From IMG/VR virus record IMGVR_UViG_3300002220_006884: a stretch of 20,000 nucleotides of DNA. One strand, given 5' to 3'. The notes beneath the pieces were generated by a model, which was given only the letters and a program-made list of their open reading frames with translations, was not told where the DNA came from and made no database searches. Numbering within the stretch: position 1 is the stretch's first letter; the number at the start of each line of letters is the position of its first letter. This document shows, piece after piece, positions 393-16,082 of the stretch. This stretch comes from an uncultured virus (IMG/VR IMGVR_UViG_3300002220_006884) (lineage: Duplodnaviria > Heunggongvirae > Uroviricota > Caudoviricetes). A program made the translations under genes and the position numbers.

Positions 393-2387
393 TTAAAAAA
401 AATGATTAAACTCAGTTAGTGTGTTAGCTTTTCTTGTTCTATTAAATCCATTATCATTTTGAGATAATGTTGAATCAATAATGTTGTCTTTTTTCATTTG
501 TTCCCATGCCATATTTTTCAATTCAAAAAAATTATAATCAAGGTTGGTAAAAATATCTGCATAATGAAATGGTTTTTTTGCTATGGCTGAGCATAATCTA
601 AACATATTGGCTTGATATGGTCCAGACCAATTAATAGAGTTGATTTCAATGGGAACAACTGATTGATGTTCGTCAGACCAAGCAATATCTAATACATAGT
701 TTTTATACTCTGGATACTTTTCTTTCATTTCTTTACAAAATGTTCTTAAAAATTTAGCATATTGAAATGTCCTATTCCTATCAATGTTTGTATCTGTAGC
801 GTTGTGTCCATCAGACAATCTTGGATCAAATCTTCCATTTAACCAACAATTGAGTGGGACAGTATTTCTAAAGCAAGCTGTCGTTGAAACAGGTTTATGA
901 TCAATAATGAAGGTTCTATATTCATTTTGTAAATTTAAAACTTCACTAACAAAAAAACATTTTAAATCACGAGTAAACCAATGGCTAAATAGGTTTCCCT
1001 CTAAGTTATAATCAAATATTAATTTACTATTTAGTAAAGTAAAAAGTAAAGATTCTGTGAAGAAGTTTAAAAATGAAAGATGACTATACTTAGGTTCCTC
1101 TTGATACTTCCGAATTACATCTAAAGGGTTAAAAAATGTTAATGATTTATGTGAGCCATTATTCTTTTTGAAAAATCCAAGAGAAGAGTCTTTTTTGGGA
1201 TTAATTATTTCACAATGAGTTTTGTGAGCAATTGTTTTGTAAAAAAAAGAGCAAACATTAAGTACTTCATCTGTTTGAACATTTGAAAATTCAAAATCGT
1301 GACTACAATAATTATTATTAATTAATTCATCTAAGTTAGTTTTTTGATTTTCGGTTAAAATTTCTTTTGTTTGATTCAATAAAAATAAAGCTAAATCACG
1401 AAAGCTAGCTAAAAAATTATTTCTTTTGCAGTATTTTTGGAATACTTCATTTTCCCAAAAGTTTTCAACATTAATATTAGTTAATGGATTTATTTTACAG
1501 TCTTCTTTTTGTGATAAAAGCAATGCTGGAACAAATGAATTGCCTTTAGGAACTCCTAATATAAAATCAAAATCATTTTTATTTAATTGAGAAAATTTTT
1601 CCCAGGCCAAAGTATCTCTACTAATAGGAGCAGTTAGCGTATATACATCACCAAAAGTTGTTTCTCCAATAAAAAAACAATCACCATATTGAGTGGAGGC
1701 AATAATAAAAGAAATTTCATCAGAAATATGATGGAAAAGTCCTCTAGACTTAATTTTAACCCAATCATCATTAGGCCATGGAAAAGAAAAGTTAGAAAGA
1801 GGTATGATTAAGTCTTTTAAATCAAATAAATTATTTGGACTTAAATTTTTTAAATTTAAAGTGGTGTTTTGGTTTTTTTGATAATGAAACTTTTCAAAAG
1901 TAATGTCTGGAATATTATTTTTATTCCGAATATAATTATTAATGTAAAGAGTTTGCCATAATAAGTTACTAGATTCAATATTTGTATCTTTAGGTAACCA
2001 TTTTGTAAAATCTTCAATTAATAGTGGATTAATCAATCCACCTTCTAAATAAACTCCAAATTTAATATTTTCAGTAAGATTATATGGTGAGTTATCTGTT
2101 AATTCAATAATTCGGTGAAATAATCCAAGAGAAAAAGTATAAGTAATTAACTTACCAAAAGAAAATGAGTCAAGATTGTAAGTGGAATAAATATTTACTT
2201 TAGAAAGAAAATCTATGATTTTCTCATTTAAAGTATTAGTTGATTTTAATTCTATTTTAGTGAATTTAGTATCAATTAAGAATTGAATAAGCCAATATTC
2301 TAAGGTTGTAGTATTAAATGGATTATTCTGAGATAAAACTTTAATATTTTTATTATTTAGGTGAGTTAAATTAAAATTTAAAAGCAT
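393..2387 (-). CDS. Large protein with C-terminal ATP-grasp domain, R2K-clade-like
   Basis: 664 aa ORF. C-terminal motifs FFVSEV..LQNEYRTFIIDHKPV, YVLDIAW and VVPIEINSINWSGPY match the ATP-grasp EYR..V / xxDI / ExN pattern. N-terminal part unrecognised. Confidence 0.65.
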   Translation of the reverse strand: MLLNFNLTHLNNKNIKVLSQNNPFNTTTLEYWLIQFLIDTKFTKIELKSTNTLNEKIIDFLSKVNIYSTYNLDSFSFGKLITYTFSLGLFHRIIELTDNSPYNLTENIKFGVYLEGGLINPLLIEDFTKWLPKDTNIESSNLLWQTLYINNYIRNKNNIPDITFEKFHYQKNQNTTLNLKNLSPNNLFDLKDLIIPLSNFSFPWPNDDWVKIKSRGLFHHISDEISFIIASTQYGDCFFIGETTFGDVYTLTAPISRDTLAWEKFSQLNKNDFDFILGVPKGNSFVPALLLSQKEDCKINPLTNINVENFWENEVFQKYCKRNNFLASFRDLALFLLNQTKEILTENQKTNLDELINNNYCSHDFEFSNVQTDEVLNVCSFFYKTIAHKTHCEIINPKKDSSLGFFKKNNGSHKSLTFFNPLDVIRKYQEEPKYSHLSFLNFFTESLLFTLLNSKLIFDYNLEGNLFSHWFTRDLKCFFVSEVLNLQNEYRTFIIDHKPVSTTACFRNTVPLNCWLNGRFDPRLSDGHNATDTNIDRNRTFQYAKFLRTFCKEMKEKYPEYKNYVLDIAWSDEHQSVVPIEINSINWSGPYQANMFRLCSAIAKKPFHYADIFTNLDYNFFELKNMAWEQMKKDNIIDSTLSQNDNGFNRTRKANTLTEFNHFF

Positions 2388-5563: not shown

Positions 5564-5638
5564 CGGTCTATAGTACAACGGATAGTGCAGTTGCCTTCTA
5601 AGCAATGAATGTGGGTTCGATTCCTGCTAGACCGACCA
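5564..5638 (+). tRNA. trnR: tRNA-Arg(UCU)
   Basis: Cloverleaf: acceptor CGGTCTA/TAGACCG, anticodon arm GTTGC-CTTCTAA-GCAAT, T-loop TTCGATT, encoded CCA. Confidence 0.95.
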
Positions 5639-8691: not shown

Positions 8692-9093
8692 ATGATAAAA
8701 GAAATTGATATATATAATGAATATATAGAAAAAATGAGATTACAAATTAATCAAGTTATGGAAAAACTTTATATCTTTAAAAAAGAAGATAATAATACCG
8801 GAATGAACGAATGTAGTGATTTAGCTCAATTAGTTATGAGATTAGGAACAGTAAGTGAGAAATTAAGGCCTTATACAAATAATAGGACACCAATACAATA
8901 TCAATTGATTGATGATTGGATTGATATAATTGATGTTAAAAAATTAGACTGTTTATTTTTAACTGCTTTTTTAAGATACACCTTTGTTGCTAAAAATGGA
9001 TTAAAAAATTGGAGTAAATTAAGAGATGAAACTGCAATAAAAATAGATTCAATAGGGAAAAATAGTAAAAGTTTGCTAAGGGGTTTGTTTTAA
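8692..9093 (+). CDS. Hypothetical protein
   Basis: 133 aa ORF with AGGA RBS. Confidence 0.8.
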   Translation: MIKEIDIYNEYIEKMRLQINQVMEKLYIFKKEDNNTGMNECSDLAQLVMRLGTVSEKLRPYTNNRTPIQYQLIDDWIDIIDVKKLDCLFLTAFLRYTFVAKNGLKNWSKLRDETAIKIDSIGKNSKSLLRGLF

Positions 9094-9382: not shown

Positions 9383-9412
9383 TAGACAAAAATATAAAAG
9401 TTGATGTATAAT
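9383..9412 (+). promoter_or_regulatory. Sigma70-like promoter of the tRNA operon
   Basis: TAGACA-18nt-TATAAT with an AT-rich upstream region. Confidence 0.65.
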
Positions 9413-9469: not shown

Positions 9470-9556
9470 GCCTTGGTGGTGAAATAGGTAGACACAAGAG
9501 ACTTAAAATCTCTCGCTTTAAACGGCATGCCGGTTCGATTCCGGCCCAAGGCACCA
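9470..9556 (+). tRNA. trnL: tRNA-Leu(UAA)
   Basis: GCCTTGG/CCAAGGC, AGAGA-CTTAAAA-TCTCT, long variable arm, TTCGATT, CCA. Confidence 0.95.
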
Positions 9557-9662
9557 TATAAAAACACATCGAGGCAAAGGCCAAGCCTTGTTGTGAAACA
9601 GCCAAGCAATACGCGATTGCTTTGGTGGACGGTTAAACTCCGTTGATGTGTTTTTATATGGT
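9557..9662 (+). ncRNA. tRNA-like structured spacer element closed by an 18-bp stem
   Basis: Perfect inverted repeat 9553-9570/9645-9662 enclosing D-like, short anticodon-like, variable and T-like arms. Confidence 0.6.
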
Positions 9663-9665
9663 AAT

Positions 9666-9750: not shown

Positions 9751-9855
9751 CTGCCGATAGCTCAGATGGATAGAGCATCTGCCTTCTTAAGTATCTTTTC
9801 TTAAGGGTATTTAAGAAGCAGATGGTCGGGGGTTCGAATCCCTCTCGGCAGGCCA
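9751..9855 (+). tRNA. trnR: tRNA-Arg (UCG or UCU) with a 28-nt hairpin insert/intron in the anticodon loop
   Basis: CTGCCGA/TCGGCAG acceptor, normal D and T arms, A20 and G73, CCA. Anticodon stem TCTGC/GCAGA encloses 35 nt instead of 7. Confidence 0.85.
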
Positions 9856-9974: not shown

Positions 9975-10048
9975 GCGGGTAAGCACGAGGTGTGTCGCCA
10001 GCCTTCCAAGCTGCGCAGAGTGGAATTCGATTTTCCCTACCCGCTCCA
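9975..10048 (+). tRNA. trnG: Atypical tRNA-Gly(UCC)
   Basis: GCGGGTA/TACCCGC acceptor, U73, CAGC-CTTCCAA-GCTG, TTCGATT, CCA. D arm and T stem are non-canonical. Confidence 0.8.
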
Positions 10049-10335: not shown

Positions 10336-10363
10336 AGCCCTTGAAAGAATCAAGGGCTTTTTT
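10336..10363 (+). terminator. Intrinsic terminator of the tRNA operon
   Basis: AGCCCTTGA-AAGAA-TCAAGGGCT followed by a T-run. Confidence 0.85.
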
Positions 10364-10367
10364 GTTT

Positions 10368-11588
10368 TTAAGATTTATTTTTTATTTTTGCGAGATTACT
10401 TTTTTCTTTTCCACATTCTGGACACCAACTACCTTTTTGAATATTTTGAAATGCTGAACTCCAAGTTGGGTGTAAGTGATTTTGACACTTCCATTCCATT
10501 TTAGTTTCAGAATTAATATAGTTGGTAGATAAGCACCATCCACCTTTATTTATTGCAAGCTGTTTAGCTTTTTCTAAATAATTGTTTTGATGATTAGTAT
10601 GCTTGTTTAAAAGAGATTCAATGATTGAAATATCAATTTTTTTATTAATTTCAATATTGTTATACTTCAATAATTGCAAGATATAATTGATAATTTGTTG
10701 AGAATCATCTAATTTAAAATTATCATCAATAATAATTAGTTTCACCTGGTTATCAATACAATTTTTCTTTTTTATTGAATCTTTAAATTGAATATATTCA
10801 AGTTCTTCTTTTGTTTTTCCAAAAGATCCTACCTTATAATGATGTTCACCTTGAAATTCAAAAGCAATTTTTAATTCTTCGCAATAACCATCTAATTCTA
10901 ACCTTTTATTGGTTTTAGGATTAATGTTCCATTTTGGGCGAGATTTTTCAAATTTAACTTCCAATAAATATTCTAATATATCTCTAATTTTATGTTCTTT
11001 ATAATAATAGGCAGAACATTGCGGACACCAACTATTATCTAATACAACACTTTTATATTTAGTGTTCCATATATGATTATTTGCACATTTCCATATTAAT
11101 TCTTTTTTAGCTCCGATATATTCAGTAGATAGGCAGTCTCCACCTTTGTTTTTGGCATATTCTTGGGCTAATTTTAATCCATTTTTATTTAGTGATCTTG
11201 TTGCATTTTTTAACTCATTACATTCTGGACACCAATGTTGACCAATTAAAATATTGTATTTTGCCTCCCAAGTATGACCATGAGAGCATTCCCATTTTAA
11301 TTTAGAAATAGAATTAACATATTCAATAGAAAGACATTTTCCACCTTTAGCTAAAGCATATTGTTGTGCTCTTTTTATCCCTTCTTCTTTTGTAAAGTAA
11401 CCTGCACATTGTGGACACCAAGAACCAAACATAACATTTTTAGTTGGAGCATCCCATTCATGTCCATGAGAACATTTCCAGGTTAGTTTTGAATTAGCTC
11501 CAAGATATTCAGTAGAAAGGCAATCACCACCTTTATTTTGGGCATATTCTTTAGCCTTTGCTAATCTTAATATTTGGTCATTATTCAT
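10368..11588 (-). CDS. Zinc-ribbon-repeat PD-(D/E)XK (Vsr/EDxHD-like) endonuclease, probable free-standing homing endonuclease
   Basis: Four repeats of KGGxCLSxxY...WxCxxxHxW...WCPxC flank a nuclease motif E..IR..LE...RLELDGY....IAFEFQGEHHY...D..K. Confidence 0.8.
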   Translation of the reverse strand: MNNDQILRLAKAKEYAQNKGGDCLSTEYLGANSKLTWKCSHGHEWDAPTKNVMFGSWCPQCAGYFTKEEGIKRAQQYALAKGGKCLSIEYVNSISKLKWECSHGHTWEAKYNILIGQHWCPECNELKNATRSLNKNGLKLAQEYAKNKGGDCLSTEYIGAKKELIWKCANNHIWNTKYKSVVLDNSWCPQCSAYYYKEHKIRDILEYLLEVKFEKSRPKWNINPKTNKRLELDGYCEELKIAFEFQGEHHYKVGSFGKTKEELEYIQFKDSIKKKNCIDNQVKLIIIDDNFKLDDSQQIINYILQLLKYNNIEINKKIDISIIESLLNKHTNHQNNYLEKAKQLAINKGGWCLSTNYINSETKMEWKCQNHLHPTWSSAFQNIQKGSWCPECGKEKSNLAKIKNKS

Positions 11589-12714: not shown

Positions 12715-12867
12715 ATTTTATTTAAAGCTAAAATTAATTATTTAATTTAGCTTTCTAATATCTTCAAGTTAAATCATGTAGAATATTACTGTTTCTACAT
12801 GTGGCAGATCATTGTAATTATTAGTTCTACAGTCCTGTTAAAAAATTTAATTAAGAAAGAAGTTATT

Positions 12868-15354
12868 ATGTCAAAAATTTTCAATCAAATTCAATCCGAT
12901 TTATTTGCTACTAAACAAGTAGTATTCATTGATAGCTTTTTCAAAAATACAGATACCCAATCATTGGGGAAAAATAAAGTTGAGGCATTTACATTACTTT
13001 TAAAATGTGAACAGTTGGGATTTTCATTCAATAGTGACTTACTTAATGTTGTTTCTCATGCAACATTGCCTGAAATGGAGAATTTTTGGAATTGGATGAC
13101 TAAAGCAAATGAAAAAATCTATGGTGCATCAAGCTATAAGCCAATGTATCCAAATTTTCCTAAGCAAGTAATTGAAGCATCTGAAGCAGAGCTTTTAGTT
13201 AATGCATTTATGCACTATACTGGAGATGTATTTGGATTGAGAATTATTCCTTCTTATAAAGAAAAAGCTCGTAAAGAACTTAAGGAAGAAGTGACTCCAA
13301 TGCGAATGTCTGTTACAACTGAAGATTCAATCCAAGAATCTTTTGTAAACTATTTACTTTCCAATACATCTCTTTCTGTTTCATCAAAAGAATTGATGAA
13401 AAATATGTTTAATTACCTTCTTGAAAAAGATGCAGATTTAGTTGAGAGTATTCTTATTGAAAATAAAATTCCTCAAAAGGAAAACTTAGCATTTATGGGG
13501 GCAATTGTATTAACATCAACAATTGATTTCAATAAATCTTTAGCAAGTCAACTTCAAACTCCAACAGATTTGATTCGTTTAAGTGCAGCACTTAATGATG
13601 GAGATACAAGTTTGGCAAAAGATACAAAAATTAAAAATATGTCTCGTCCAATGCGTAAAGCCTTTGTAGCAAAACTTGAAAGTATGTTACAAGATGGAGA
13701 CAAATCTCAATTTATGGAAAATATGTTCACTTATAAAGAAAAGTGGACTCGTTTAGCTCATGCGATTCACATTGGTGAATATAAAAGCAAATGTCCTCTT
13801 GCTTTTGAGGCATTACAAAAGGTTCGTTCAAATGATAAAGATGAATCCTTCAATTATAAAATTGAGAAATTAATTACTTCAGGTAACACTGTTGGTGCTT
13901 CAGAGCAATTATGTACACGCCCAGGAGTTTTTGGTCGTATGCTTAATCAAGTATTAAGCAAGAGTAAAGATATTGCAGACCAAGAAAAGGTATTAGGTAA
14001 TTTTAAGTTGGCATCAGCATCAATTGCTACTCCAGTATTATTACAAATTCATGCAAAATTTAAGTATGACAATCAAAATGAAAAGAAAATCATTCTTCCA
14101 AAAGGTGGTTTGGGTAAGATGTTCGTTCGTGATTTAAATGCACCAAAAGTAGAGAAGGTTGTTAAGAAAAAGCCTGTATACAATAGCTACAAGGTTCCAG
14201 AAAAGGCTCCCGAAGTTAAAATGGAGTCAGCACTTGCTCAAGCATTAAAGAATGTATTAAACATTAAGGATGCGGATAAGGTTATGGCTGAAGTAAAAAG
14301 AATTATGCCAGAAATAACTGTTGCTGAAACAGAAAAAGTTAAAGAAGTAATTAAAGAAACTGCAAAAGTAGCTGTTGTTCAAAACTATACTAAAGTTTCT
14401 GATGAACTTGCAAACAAGGTTGTATCAATTATTGAAACAACTTTAATTGAAAGATTTAAATCTGCTCCAGCATTAGGAGATGTTTATATTGAAGATAGTT
14501 TAACATTACAAAATGTTCCATTTGCACAAAGAACAGCATCAAAAGCTTTGAAGACTGTGCCAAAGGGTTCACGTTTTGTGAAGGAATCAGATAAGCCAAT
14601 TATTCGTTTCTTTACATGGTGGAATGAGAATGGTGTTGATAAAAATGGTAATGCATTAAATTCTGGTCGAGTAGATATTGATTTAAGTGTCGGAATTTTT
14701 GATTCTGGATACAACTTAATTAAGCAATGTGCTTATTACGATATGAGGTCTTCAGACTATATGGCACATAGTGGAGATATAACATCTGCACCTAATGGAG
14801 CAGCAGAATATATCGATGTTAATATTGAAAAGCTAGTTGAAGATTTACCTGGAGCGGCTTATGTTGCTCAGTTAATTAGTTCATATACTTCACAAAAGTA
14901 TAGTGAGTTGCCAGAATGTTATTCAGGTTGGATGGAGCGTGAGCAAAAACAACATGGAGAAATTTTTGAAGCATCTACAGTTCAAAATAAAGTAGATATT
15001 ACCTGTGATTCAACTCAAGTATTAACTTGTCTTTATGATATCAATCGTAAAGAATATATTTGGGCAGATACTCCTATTAGTTCAAATTTTTCTAGTTATA
15101 ACAACCTTAAATCAATTAAGGGAGCAATGGCATATAATATTGAAGGATTGGTAGAAATGAAGAAGCCAAATCTATACGATTTATTTGAGATGCATGCAAA
15201 AGCTCGTGGAACAATCGTAAGTGATAAAACTAAAGCAGATACAGTTTTTTCTTTAAAAGAAGGAATAACACCTTTTGATACAGAAATTATTGCCTCCAAG
15301 TTCATGGCAGATGTGTATGAAGTACCTTCTGTTAAAAAGAAATTAAAGGCTTAA
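12868..15354 (+). CDS. Large helical (TROVE/Rot-like?) plus C-terminal TerD-domain protein
   Basis: ORF track gives 12799-15354; ATG at 12868 (MSKIFNQ) is preferred. C-terminal RVDIDLSV...HSGDITSAPNGAAEYIDV is TerD-like. N-terminal part is helical, with MYPNFPKQV and RPGVFGRML motifs. Confidence 0.75.
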   Translation: MSKIFNQIQSDLFATKQVVFIDSFFKNTDTQSLGKNKVEAFTLLLKCEQLGFSFNSDLLNVVSHATLPEMENFWNWMTKANEKIYGASSYKPMYPNFPKQVIEASEAELLVNAFMHYTGDVFGLRIIPSYKEKARKELKEEVTPMRMSVTTEDSIQESFVNYLLSNTSLSVSSKELMKNMFNYLLEKDADLVESILIENKIPQKENLAFMGAIVLTSTIDFNKSLASQLQTPTDLIRLSAALNDGDTSLAKDTKIKNMSRPMRKAFVAKLESMLQDGDKSQFMENMFTYKEKWTRLAHAIHIGEYKSKCPLAFEALQKVRSNDKDESFNYKIEKLITSGNTVGASEQLCTRPGVFGRMLNQVLSKSKDIADQEKVLGNFKLASASIATPVLLQIHAKFKYDNQNEKKIILPKGGLGKMFVRDLNAPKVEKVVKKKPVYNSYKVPEKAPEVKMESALAQALKNVLNIKDADKVMAEVKRIMPEITVAETEKVKEVIKETAKVAVVQNYTKVSDELANKVVSIIETTLIERFKSAPALGDVYIEDSLTLQNVPFAQRTASKALKTVPKGSRFVKESDKPIIRFFTWWNENGVDKNGNALNSGRVDIDLSVGIFDSGYNLIKQCAYYDMRSSDYMAHSGDITSAPNGAAEYIDVNIEKLVEDLPGAAYVAQLISSYTSQKYSELPECYSGWMEREQKQHGEIFEASTVQNKVDITCDSTQVLTCLYDINRKEYIWADTPISSNFSSYNNLKSIKGAMAYNIEGLVEMKKPNLYDLFEMHAKARGTIVSDKTKADTVFSLKEGITPFDTEIIASKFMADVYEVPSVKKKLKA

Positions 15355-15515: not shown

Positions 15516-16082
15516 TTAAAGGTTATACTTTGTTTTCCAATCAAGAGCTTCTACAGCATGGAAGATTTCTTCTTTAACGGTTGGAGCAAAGTTATTCAAC
15601 ATAAAATTATCAAAAGATCTAACGTGTGGATAATTAATCATTTGAGTAGTAAATAGAGTTCCTTCTGACATAAAATGTTCTGCTTTATTACTATTGGTTA
15701 GAATATCTCTCAAAACGAATTCAGAGACTTTAGCTGTAATTAGGTGAGTGACAAGGTTGTCTGTTTCATGAGAGCATAAGAAGTTAAATTTTTTAATCTG
15801 ATCGTTAGACAGAGCATAACCAGTTTCTTCTTGAAACTCTCTAATAGAGGAAGAGATTAAATCTTCACCTGGTTCAACTTCACCACCGATAAATCCGATT
15901 AATCCATCCCATCGTTGCATCATAAGAACAAGAGGAACAATGGTATCTTTATTTTGTTTGGAAATGCCACTATAATTTCGCCAAACATTGGTTTCAGCAT
16001 AAGCCATGATAAAAGAAGCTTGCTTCTTATTATTAGGATTACTTTTAGGTTCAATGAGTTTAATATTCAAAATGGACTCCAA
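15516..16082 (-). CDS. Nudix hydrolase, NUDT16 (U8 snoRNA-decapping enzyme)-like
   Basis: Nudix box GGEVEPGEDLISSSIREFQEETG preceded by LMMQRWDGLIGF. An alternative TTG start at 16070 follows a GGAG RBS. Confidence 0.85.
   Translation of the reverse strand: MESILNIKLIEPKSNPNNKKQASFIMAYAETNVWRNYSGISKQNKDTIVPLVLMMQRWDGLIGFIGGEVEPGEDLISSSIREFQEETGYALSNDQIKKFNFLCSHETDNLVTHLITAKVSEFVLRDILTNSNKAEHFMSEGTLFTTQMINYPHVRSFDNFMLNNFAPTVKEEIFHAVEALDWKTKYNL

What the first reader, a model, noticed from the sequence alone, without database searches (positions are those of the whole stretch)
9751..9855. tRNA-Arg with a 28-nt self-complementary insert in the anticodon loop
Seen: the tRNA body is intact but the anticodon loop is 35 nt (9783-9817). 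Bases 9784-9817 form a 15-bp hairpin (3 G-U pairs, loop TCTT) extending the anticodon stem. Deleting 9787-9814, which begins and ends with TTAA, gives CT-TCG-AA (Arg-UCG). Deleting 9788-9815 gives CT-TCT-AA (Arg-UCU). The insert is far too short for a group I intron and shows no clear bulge-helix-bulge. Inference: a protein-spliced mini-intron needing a phage nuclease/ligase, or an unspliced, anticodon-masked tRNA acting as a decoy or non-ribosomal Arg donor.
Basis: partly seen in the sequence, partly recalled or inferred. Interest (0 to 1): 0.78.

Follow-up and report, generated by a model that had tools for sequence, protein, structure and literature searches.

The report
RNase III-type phage tRNA intron
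This phage arginine tRNA gene is split by a small hairpin built like a cutting site for the host's double-stranded-RNA enzyme RNase III, and many other phage tRNA genes carry the same design, which points to an undescribed way of splicing tRNA in bacteria (predicted from sequence, not yet shown in RNA).

Summary
The insert is real and belongs to a family: 22 distinct inserts in tRNA-Arg genes, including cultured Aeromonas phages Aeh1 and PX29, and 12 in Ile, Gly, Thr and Lys genes. Insert-free orthologues (phiAS5, PA5oct) fix the site at 36/37 and the product as Arg(UCU), not UCG. In that register both junctions lie in one helix, staggered to leave 2-nt 3' overhangs, which is RNase III geometry. 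The insert here is 11 bp + tetraloop + 2 nt = 28 nt, the size of the product of the minimal E. coli substrate. A U·G pair 9 bp from the cut recurs in 22 of 34 inserts, and a published RNase III matrix scores this register best in 19 of 22 Arg inserts. Best reading (0.6): host RNase III excises the hairpin and a phage ATP-dependent RNA ligase seals the tRNA. Cutting is inferred from sequence, ligation is inferred more weakly, and no RNA data were seen. The scan earlier noted hairpin-interrupted phage tRNAs on other DNA; my word searches of those notes did not show this mechanism.

The parts
9751..9787 (+). 5' exon of tRNA-Arg(UCU): acceptor 5' strand, D arm with A20, anticodon stem 5' strand, loop positions 32-36
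   Evidence: aligns to insert-free PA5oct tRNA-Arg
9788..9815 (+). 28-nt insert at position 36/37: 11-bp stem (9788-9798/9803-9813), 4-nt loop (9799-9802), 2-nt 3' tail (9814-9815) that pairs with anticodon bases 36 and 35
   Evidence: boundary from insert-free orthologues
9784..9787 (+). Loop bases 33-36 paired with 9817-9814; predicted cuts after 9787 and after 9815 leave 2-nt 3' overhangs
   Evidence: pair probabilities 0.98-1.0; geometry is inference from the fold
9788..9791 (+). Proximal-box-like pairs +1 to +4 (U-A, A-U, A-U, G·U) with 9813-9810
   Evidence: against the consensus in PMC1540722
9796..9805 (+). Distal-box-like pairs: U·G at +9 (9796/9805) and U-A at +10 (9797/9804)
   Evidence: U·G at +9 in 22 of 34 family inserts
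9816..9855 (+). 3' exon: A37, A38, anticodon stem 3' strand, variable loop, T arm, acceptor 3' strand, encoded CCA
9383..9412 (+). Sigma-70-like promoter match (11 of 12) ahead of the Leu-Val-Arg-Gly-Leu tRNA run; context, function not shown
10336..10358 (+). Terminator-like hairpin closing the tRNA run; context, function not shown

Best explanation
The insert is a tRNA intron removed by host RNase III and sealed by a phage RNA ligase. Shown from sequence: the gene is an intact tRNA-Arg(UCU) split at 36/37; the insert extends the anticodon stem into a helix in which the two junctions are staggered by 2 bp; this design is conserved with compensatory change in five isoacceptors. Inferred with good support: host RNase III binds the 11-bp stem through proximal- and distal-box pairs and cuts after U36 and before A37, releasing a 28-nt hairpin and leaving 3'-OH and 5'-phosphate ends. 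Inferred with weaker support: a phage ATP-dependent RNA ligase (Rnl1 or Rnl2 type) joins these ends without end healing, giving a normal 77-nt tRNA. Why the phage keeps it is open: the anticodon stays masked until ligase is present, and the insert may also shield the gene from DNA-level attack.
For: Register: phiAS5 has an insert-free tRNA-Arg(TCT) at the same locus as the insert-bearing genes of 7 other Aeromonas phage records. With only CTTC...AA imposed on the loop, 11 of 11 loops of this class end so that bases 33-36 pair, against 0 of 52 other loops. The last two insert bases track the anticodon in Ile, Gly, Thr and Lys genes; both pair in 20 of 25 loops with a tRNA body and in 22 of 143 without. 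Covariation in 15 arms: 90.5% of cells paired, 12 of 19 pairs change on both sides, while +9 stays U·G in 11 of 15 with no two-sided change. RNase III rules: 2-nt 3' overhangs, 3'-OH/5'-P ends (PMC6212723); 11-bp minimum, 28-nt product, stringent U·G in the distal box (PMC1540722). With the published in vivo matrix this register is best of 9 in 19 of 22 Arg inserts; column-order permutation p = 0.0001 for 10 lineage representatives; p = 0.0009 for this insert alone. Out of sample, 12 non-Arg inserts: U·G at +9 in 9 of 12 (null mean 1.0), register best in 8 of 12. Aeh1, PX29 and Ah1 show no uninterrupted Arg loop of the searched form (ARAGORN on the Aeh1 and PX29 clusters). RNA ligase PF09414 in 9 of 9 near-complete insert-bearing records against 5 of 15 controls. 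No phage RNase III domain in 4 and 5 records searched.
Against: No RNA evidence of cutting or joining. The window's genome is not held, so its own ligase and host are unknown; none of the 20 window ORFs scanned is a ligase or RNase. The window, L210 and L215 also carry an uninterrupted tRNA-Arg(TCT), so splicing is not needed there. C-G at +1 (9 of 22) and G-C at +3 (5 of 22) are antideterminants for E. coli RNase III in vitro. The tRNA side of the helix has a bulge at C32 or C31, at a position paired in 95% of in vivo sites, and bulges can limit cleavage to one strand. Inserts under 28 nt (13 of 34) give less than the 11-bp minimum. Three Lys inserts and the Ile insert of L260 lack the +9 U·G. 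The ligase association weakens to p = 0.03 by lineage and p = 0.08 when matched for genome size; insert-free phiAS5 has both ligases too. Family members are related, so permutation p-values overstate independence.
Confidence: 0.6

Rival explanations
1. RNase III cuts the hairpin out but the halves are not rejoined, as for intervening sequences of 23S rRNA. The product is a nicked tRNA, or the site is a decay switch that limits or times this tRNA.
For: [quoted passage not shown] A spare uninterrupted tRNA-Arg(TCT) exists in the window, L210 and L215.
Against: The exons rebuild an exact 7-nt loop with a cognate anticodon in five isoacceptors, and the gene replaces an ordinary tRNA-Arg at the same locus in Aeromonas phages that have no other. 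A break next to the anticodon is expected to block decoding (own knowledge). RNA ligases co-occur.
Confidence: 0.17
2. The RNA is spliced, but by an unidentified phage (or other host) nuclease rather than RNase III; the RNase III-like pattern reflects shared ancestry of the inserts or a similar dsRNA-binding mode.
For: Some members break E. coli RNase III rules. Near-identical inserts sit in different tRNA bodies, so the inserts are at least partly homologous. Many phage ORFs are of unknown family.
Against: No neighbour gene family is shared across the 19 loci scanned. U·G is kept at a fixed distance from the cut while most other pairs covary and loop length varies from 26 to 37 nt, as described for RNase III.
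Confidence: 0.1
3. The RNA stays unspliced and acts as an anticodon-masked tRNA mimic (decoy for anticodon nucleases, synthetase or RNase III binder, or non-ribosomal amino-acid donor).
For: The unspliced fold is very stable. G-C or C-G next to the cut can allow binding without cleavage, and 9 of 22 Arg inserts have C-G there. A20, acceptor stem and CCA are intact.
Against: A mimic would not need to keep exact, removable 36/37 boundaries in five isoacceptors, nor flip between insert-bearing and insert-free alleles. This insert has U-A at +1 and matches the cleavable consensus.
Confidence: 0.1
4. A dead gene hit by a chance palindrome, or an assembly artefact.
Against: 34 distinct inserts with one geometry, cultured-phage genomes among them, with intact and covarying tRNA bodies.
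Confidence: 0.03

Closest known systems
'Enigmatic' tRNA introns of Lak megaphages (Devoto et al. 2019, PMC6784885; passages and part 4 of Table file read)
   Same: Phage tRNA genes interrupted next to the anticodon; insert-free alleles exist; the paper notes a one-base offset from the predicted 37/38 site, which I read as 36/37; mechanism unknown.
   Different: Lak introns listed are about 79-113 nt, in Tyr, Phe, Thr and Gly genes, and contain T-arm-like or tRNA-like parts. These are 19-37-nt single hairpins whose 3' end pairs with the anticodon.
RNase III-excised intervening sequences of bacterial 23S rRNA (PMC8708148, passages)
   Same: A hairpin insert in a stable RNA, removed by RNase III.
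   Different: Those are 100-200 nt, in rRNA, and the fragments are not rejoined. Here the insert is in a tRNA anticodon loop, where function should need ligation.
Minimal E. coli RNase III substrate uR1.1 from the T7 R1.1 site (PMC1540722; Results part 1 and Discussion part 1 read)
   Same: 11-bp helix plus tetraloop above the cut, 28-nt product, W-W pairs at +1 to +3, U·G/U-A distal box.
   Different: An mRNA processing signal, not an intron; here the other half of the site is formed by the tRNA's own anticodon arm.
Archaeal and eukaryotic protein-spliced tRNA introns (PMC3400036, passages)
   Same: Short insert beside the anticodon, removed by cut and ligation.
   Different: Canonical site 37/38 and bulge-helix-bulge; ends are 2',3'-cyclic phosphate and 5'-OH. 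This class has 0 of 11 such helices, against 29 of 48 for archaeal-type loops from the same search.
T4 Pnk/Rnl1 repair of PrrC-cut tRNA-Lys (PMC3400036, PMC3014915, passages)
   Same: A phage ligase joins 3'-OH and 5'-phosphate ends in an anticodon loop.
   Different: Repair of damage to a host tRNA after end healing, with nothing removed; here the ends would be ready for ligation and the substrate is the phage's own precursor.

Membership tests
Group I tRNA intron | Catalytic core of several paired regions, typically over 200 nt (own knowledge) | tested here: not met
   28-nt single hairpin; no intron family among the 10 Rfam matches in the window
Archaeal/eukaryotic tRNA intron | Bulge-helix-bulge at the junctions | tested here: not met
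   0 of 11 loops of this class form the canonical central helix; 29 of 48 archaeal-type loops do
Archaeal/eukaryotic tRNA intron | Canonical position 37/38 | tested here: not met
   Boundary is 36/37 by insert-free orthologues
Lak-type phage tRNA intron | Site one base 5' of the predicted 37/38 position | tested here: met
   Paper passage on the offset, my reading of Table S6,
Lak-type phage tRNA intron | About 79-113 nt with T-arm-like or tRNA-like content | tested here: not met
   Lengths 19-37 nt, 25 of 34 at 26-30 nt; compared by eye with the part of Table S6 read
Bacterial RNase III substrate | Two cuts staggered to leave 2-nt 3' overhangs, intervening pairs intact with a G-C/C-G | tested here: met
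   Geometry of the 36/37 register against PMC6212723; predicted, not observed, cuts
Bacterial RNase III substrate | At least 11 bp between cut and loop | tested here: met
   11 bp in this gene; 13 of 34 family inserts are shorter than 28 nt
Bacterial RNase III substrate | Proximal and distal box pairs | tested here: met
   Score -24.4 on the 24-position matrix, above the paper's -25.5 column; order-shuffle p 0.0009. Some family members carry antideterminants
Bacterial RNase III substrate | Continuous helix on the second half-site | tested here: inconclusive
   Two pairs, a one-base bulge, then the 5-bp anticodon stem; stacking can substitute and bulges can restrict cutting
Bacterial RNase III substrate | Cleavage by the enzyme | not testable with these tools
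   Needs an in vitro or rnc-mutant experiment
rRNA intervening sequence | Lies in rRNA and fragments stay unligated | tested here: not met
   Lies in a tRNA gene; ligation state not testable here
tRNA-Arg(UCU) | Cloverleaf, A20, C35, CCA end, UCU loop after removal | tested here: met

The most novel reading that the evidence does not exclude
A new class of tRNA intron in the bacterial world: phage tRNA genes of at least five isoacceptors are interrupted at 36/37 by minimal RNase III sites, so that a host housekeeping nuclease and a phage RNA ligase together act as a splicing machine. It would give phage RNA ligases a routine biosynthetic job beyond repair and mean that phage tRNA sets are under-counted and mis-annotated.
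Probability: 0.6. Interest if true: 0.92.

Novelty: categorically new. Interest (0 to 1): 0.85.

Why it matters
[quoted passage not shown] This family offers a concrete route with named enzymes and predicted cut sites, testable in days with commercial RNase III and T4 RNA ligases, and in cultured phages (Aeh1, PX29, Ah1). It also corrects annotation: the gene is labelled tRNA-Glu in Aeh1, a two-piece tRNA-Lys in PX29, and the Aeh1 genome paper lists no Arg-UCU (PMC1524935). The novelty label applies to the mechanism, which is predicted. The existence of interrupted phage tRNA genes is already known. Ten literature searches showed no report of this mechanism, but the library lacks most subscription papers, including a 2021 Cell Systems phage-tRNA paper that I recalled and could not read and a 2025 Trends in Microbiology review seen only as a citation.

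Tried and rejected
Whole genome: none held. Related loci by the protein at 8692-9093: none confirmed. Sequencing runs: 21 listed, no RNA holder listed; 2 rows from 2 studies hold half or more of the words, one of them possibly the source; none was laid, so nothing is claimed from them. UCG register: rejected because it gives a blunt cut, insert-free orthologues are TCT, and it does not generalise to other isoacceptors. T4 rnaC/rnaD: read, different architecture. Five of 9 genome-contig hits (L218, L219, L220, L222, L225) had no tRNA body and were dropped before counts. Inserts over 40 nt and those starting with A were left out of the non-Arg test. Phage RNase III: 0 of 4 and 0 of 5 records; RtcB 0 of 5; several of these records are fragments. 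Homing-endonuclease link: endonuclease-like ORFs within 2.5 kb in 7 of 19 loci (81 of 85 ORFs scanned) with no background control, so inconclusive. Searches of cultured phages with two Lys genes found no full-length relative. My first filter was too strict (0 hits) and was replaced. The three-way alignment placed the Gly gap poorly; the Gly boundary was read. The Devoto PDF supplement did not show intron text in the search, and only part 4 of 8 of its table file was read; unseen parts may bear on the comparison.

Full report
Observation. The window is AT-rich, phage-like DNA with a run of tRNA genes. The gene at 9751-9855 is as described: an intact tRNA body (Rfam 55.4 bits) with a 35-nt anticodon loop that folds into 15 more pairs; z = -5.6, 0 of 200 shuffles as stable. 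It lies between a promoter-like site at 9383-9412 and a terminator-like hairpin at 10336-10358. The host and the rest of the genome are unknown.

A family, not a one-off. A pattern fixing only CTTC and AA on the loop gave 69 metagenome and 3 viral stretches, 63 distinct loops with the window's own. Of these, 48 begin CTTCTA and 4 CTTCGG; they look like archaeal 37/38 introns (29 of 48 and 4 of 4 form the canonical central helix, lengths 11-36 nt). Eleven form a second class: all 11 end so that loop bases 33-36 pair with the last two insert bases and A37-A38, none forms the archaeal helix, and lengths are 26-30 nt. A targeted pattern (5 of 9 genome hits dropped for lack of a tRNA body) and annotated phage records brought the set to 22 distinct Arg inserts. 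In 15 aligned arms, 90.5% of cells pair and 12 of 19 pairs change on both sides (relatedness inflates such scores).

Register. Aeh1, Ah1, avDM12-TAAL, AsFcp_1, AsFcp_2, AsFcp_4, phiWae14 and PX29 carry the insert in the tRNA after gene 57B. phiAS5 has an ordinary tRNA-Arg(TCT) at the same place, lacking exactly the bases between TCT and AA. The PA5oct tRNA-Arg (codon AGA) aligns to this gene in the same way. So the site is 36/37 and the insert is 9788-9815. Aeh1, PX29 and Ah1 have no uninterrupted loop of the searched form. Databases call the gene tRNA-Glu in Aeh1 and a two-piece tRNA-Lys in PX29. Against necessity: the window, L210 and L215 also carry an uninterrupted tRNA-Arg(TCT).

Geometry. 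In this register U33-A38, U34-A37, C35-G(-1) and U36-A(-2) are paired. Cuts after U36 and before A37 therefore fall on opposite strands of one helix and leave 2-nt 3' overhangs; the UCG register would be blunt. RNase III cuts in this way and leaves 3'-OH and 5'-phosphate ends (PMC6212723, passages and one section read). Its minimal substrate needs 11 bp between cut and tetraloop, yields a 28-nt product, and has a stringent U·G in the distal box; the cut is not set by loop position (PMC1540722). The insert here is 11 bp + 4 + 2 = 28 nt. The figures were not held: placing the distal box at +9/+10 rests on the paper's base numbering, my recall, and the in vivo table, where +9 has the most U·G on that arm and U-A leads at +10. 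I oriented that table from counts quoted in the paper's text.

Sequence test. Scored with the published matrix, the window's gene gets -24.4 (the table's cut-off columns are -25.5 and -33.8); the 22 Arg inserts range from -23.3 to -30.6; this register is best of nine in 19 of 22. Twenty-nine archaeal-type introns read the same way score -32.2 to -59.7. Shuffling the order of pairs within each insert gives p = 0.0001 for 10 lineage representatives and 0.0003 for 8, and 0.0009 for this insert alone. G·G mismatches sit at +2 in 11 of 34 inserts; in the E. coli table G·G is most frequent at the matching positions C and C'.

Out-of-sample test. Patterns leaving the anticodon's last two bases and the insert ends free and a scan of all loci found the same design in Ile(UAU), Gly(UCC), Thr(UGU) and Lys(UUU) genes, with insert ends that follow the anticodon. 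Both pairs form in 20 of 25 loops with a tRNA body and 22 of 143 without; the 5 misses are 41-49-nt spans that look like other things. In 12 non-Arg inserts U·G is at +9 in 9 (null mean 1.0) and U-A at +10 in 8, including 37-nt Gly inserts with a larger loop. Three Lys inserts and the Ile insert of L260 do not fit. L159, a relative with the same tRNA order, has insert-bearing Gly genes where the window's Gly-like gene has none.

Enzymes. No RNase III domain in 4 and 5 phage records and no RtcB in 5, which points to the host nuclease. An Rnl2-family ligase is present in 9 of 9 near-complete insert-bearing records (three checked as RNA ligases by PHROGs) and 5 of 15 controls: p = 0.002 raw, 0.03 by lineage, 0.08 size-matched. 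Rnl1 was found in 3 of 4 and 2 of 5 records. T4 Rnl1 joins 3'-OH and 5'-phosphate ends in an anticodon loop. Such ligases are common in jumbo phages anyway (PMC7824862, passages), so this is weak support. No neighbour gene is shared across the family.

What speaks against. No RNA data. Some members carry pairs that inhibit E. coli RNase III in vitro (C-G at +1 in 9 of 22, G-C at +3 in 5 of 22), 13 of 34 inserts are under 28 nt, and the tRNA side has a one-base bulge that could restrict cutting to one strand. Hosts other than Aeromonas are unknown and their RNase III rules may differ. Near-identical inserts in different tRNA bodies show that inserts move or are shared by descent, which lowers independence.

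Comparison and verdict. It is not a group I intron, not a bulge-helix-bulge intron, differs in size and build from the Lak introns, and differs from rRNA intervening sequences in lying where ligation should be needed. It works like an RNase III site placed in an anticodon loop. I put RNase III recognition at about 0.8 and full splicing by RNase III plus phage ligase at 0.6. Searches in print (listings and abstract starts, with passages of the papers cited) and in the scan's notes showed no statement of this mechanism, within the limits of those collections. Interest 0.85.

Noticed in passing
window 9975-10048 (+): An atypical tRNA-Gly(UCC)-like gene with CCA end that ARAGORN and Rfam both miss; the two Gly genes of relative L159 carry a 37-nt insert of this family.
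   Followed up: partly
window 9553-9665 (+): Long closed stem starting at the CCA end of tRNA-Leu(UAA) with inner hairpins (z = -6.7); L159 has a stem with similar outer arms and different inner content. Resembles the 'stalk with cargo' RNAs in earlier scan notes.
   Followed up: partly
window 5564-5638 (+): A second, uninterrupted tRNA-Arg(UCU) 4.2 kb upstream; ARAGORN finds none within 10 kb of the insert-bearing gene in L159.
   Followed up: partly
window 10368-11588 (-): 406-aa protein with treble-clef zinc fingers matching PHROG endonuclease families, converging on the tRNA run; homologue at the same place in L159.
   Followed up: partly
L002/L190 and L205/L216; L194 and L198: Identical or near-identical inserts sit in clearly different tRNA-Arg bodies, suggesting recombination or mobility of the insert.
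   Followed up: no
L007 151-240 (-), L110: tRNA-like genes with 28-35-nt hairpins in the anticodon loop that do not fit this geometry (Lys-CUU or CAU reading); possibly another class.
   Followed up: no
L221, L223, L224, L226: Family-type inserts in contigs binned as Woesearchaeota, Fimbriimonadales, Clostridia and Chitinophagaceae genomes; whether these are cellular genes or mis-binned phage DNA was not settled.
   Followed up: no
L468 1587-2234 and nearby Ile gene; L374: An RNA ligase gene lies within about 2 kb of an insert-bearing Ile gene in G011, and a weak ligase match lies on the 4.6-kb contig of L374.
   Followed up: partly
window 393-2387 (-), 12799-15354 (+), 15516-16082 (-): R2K ATP-grasp protein, an 851-aa protein with distant phage relatives only, and a Nudix hydrolase.
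   Followed up: no
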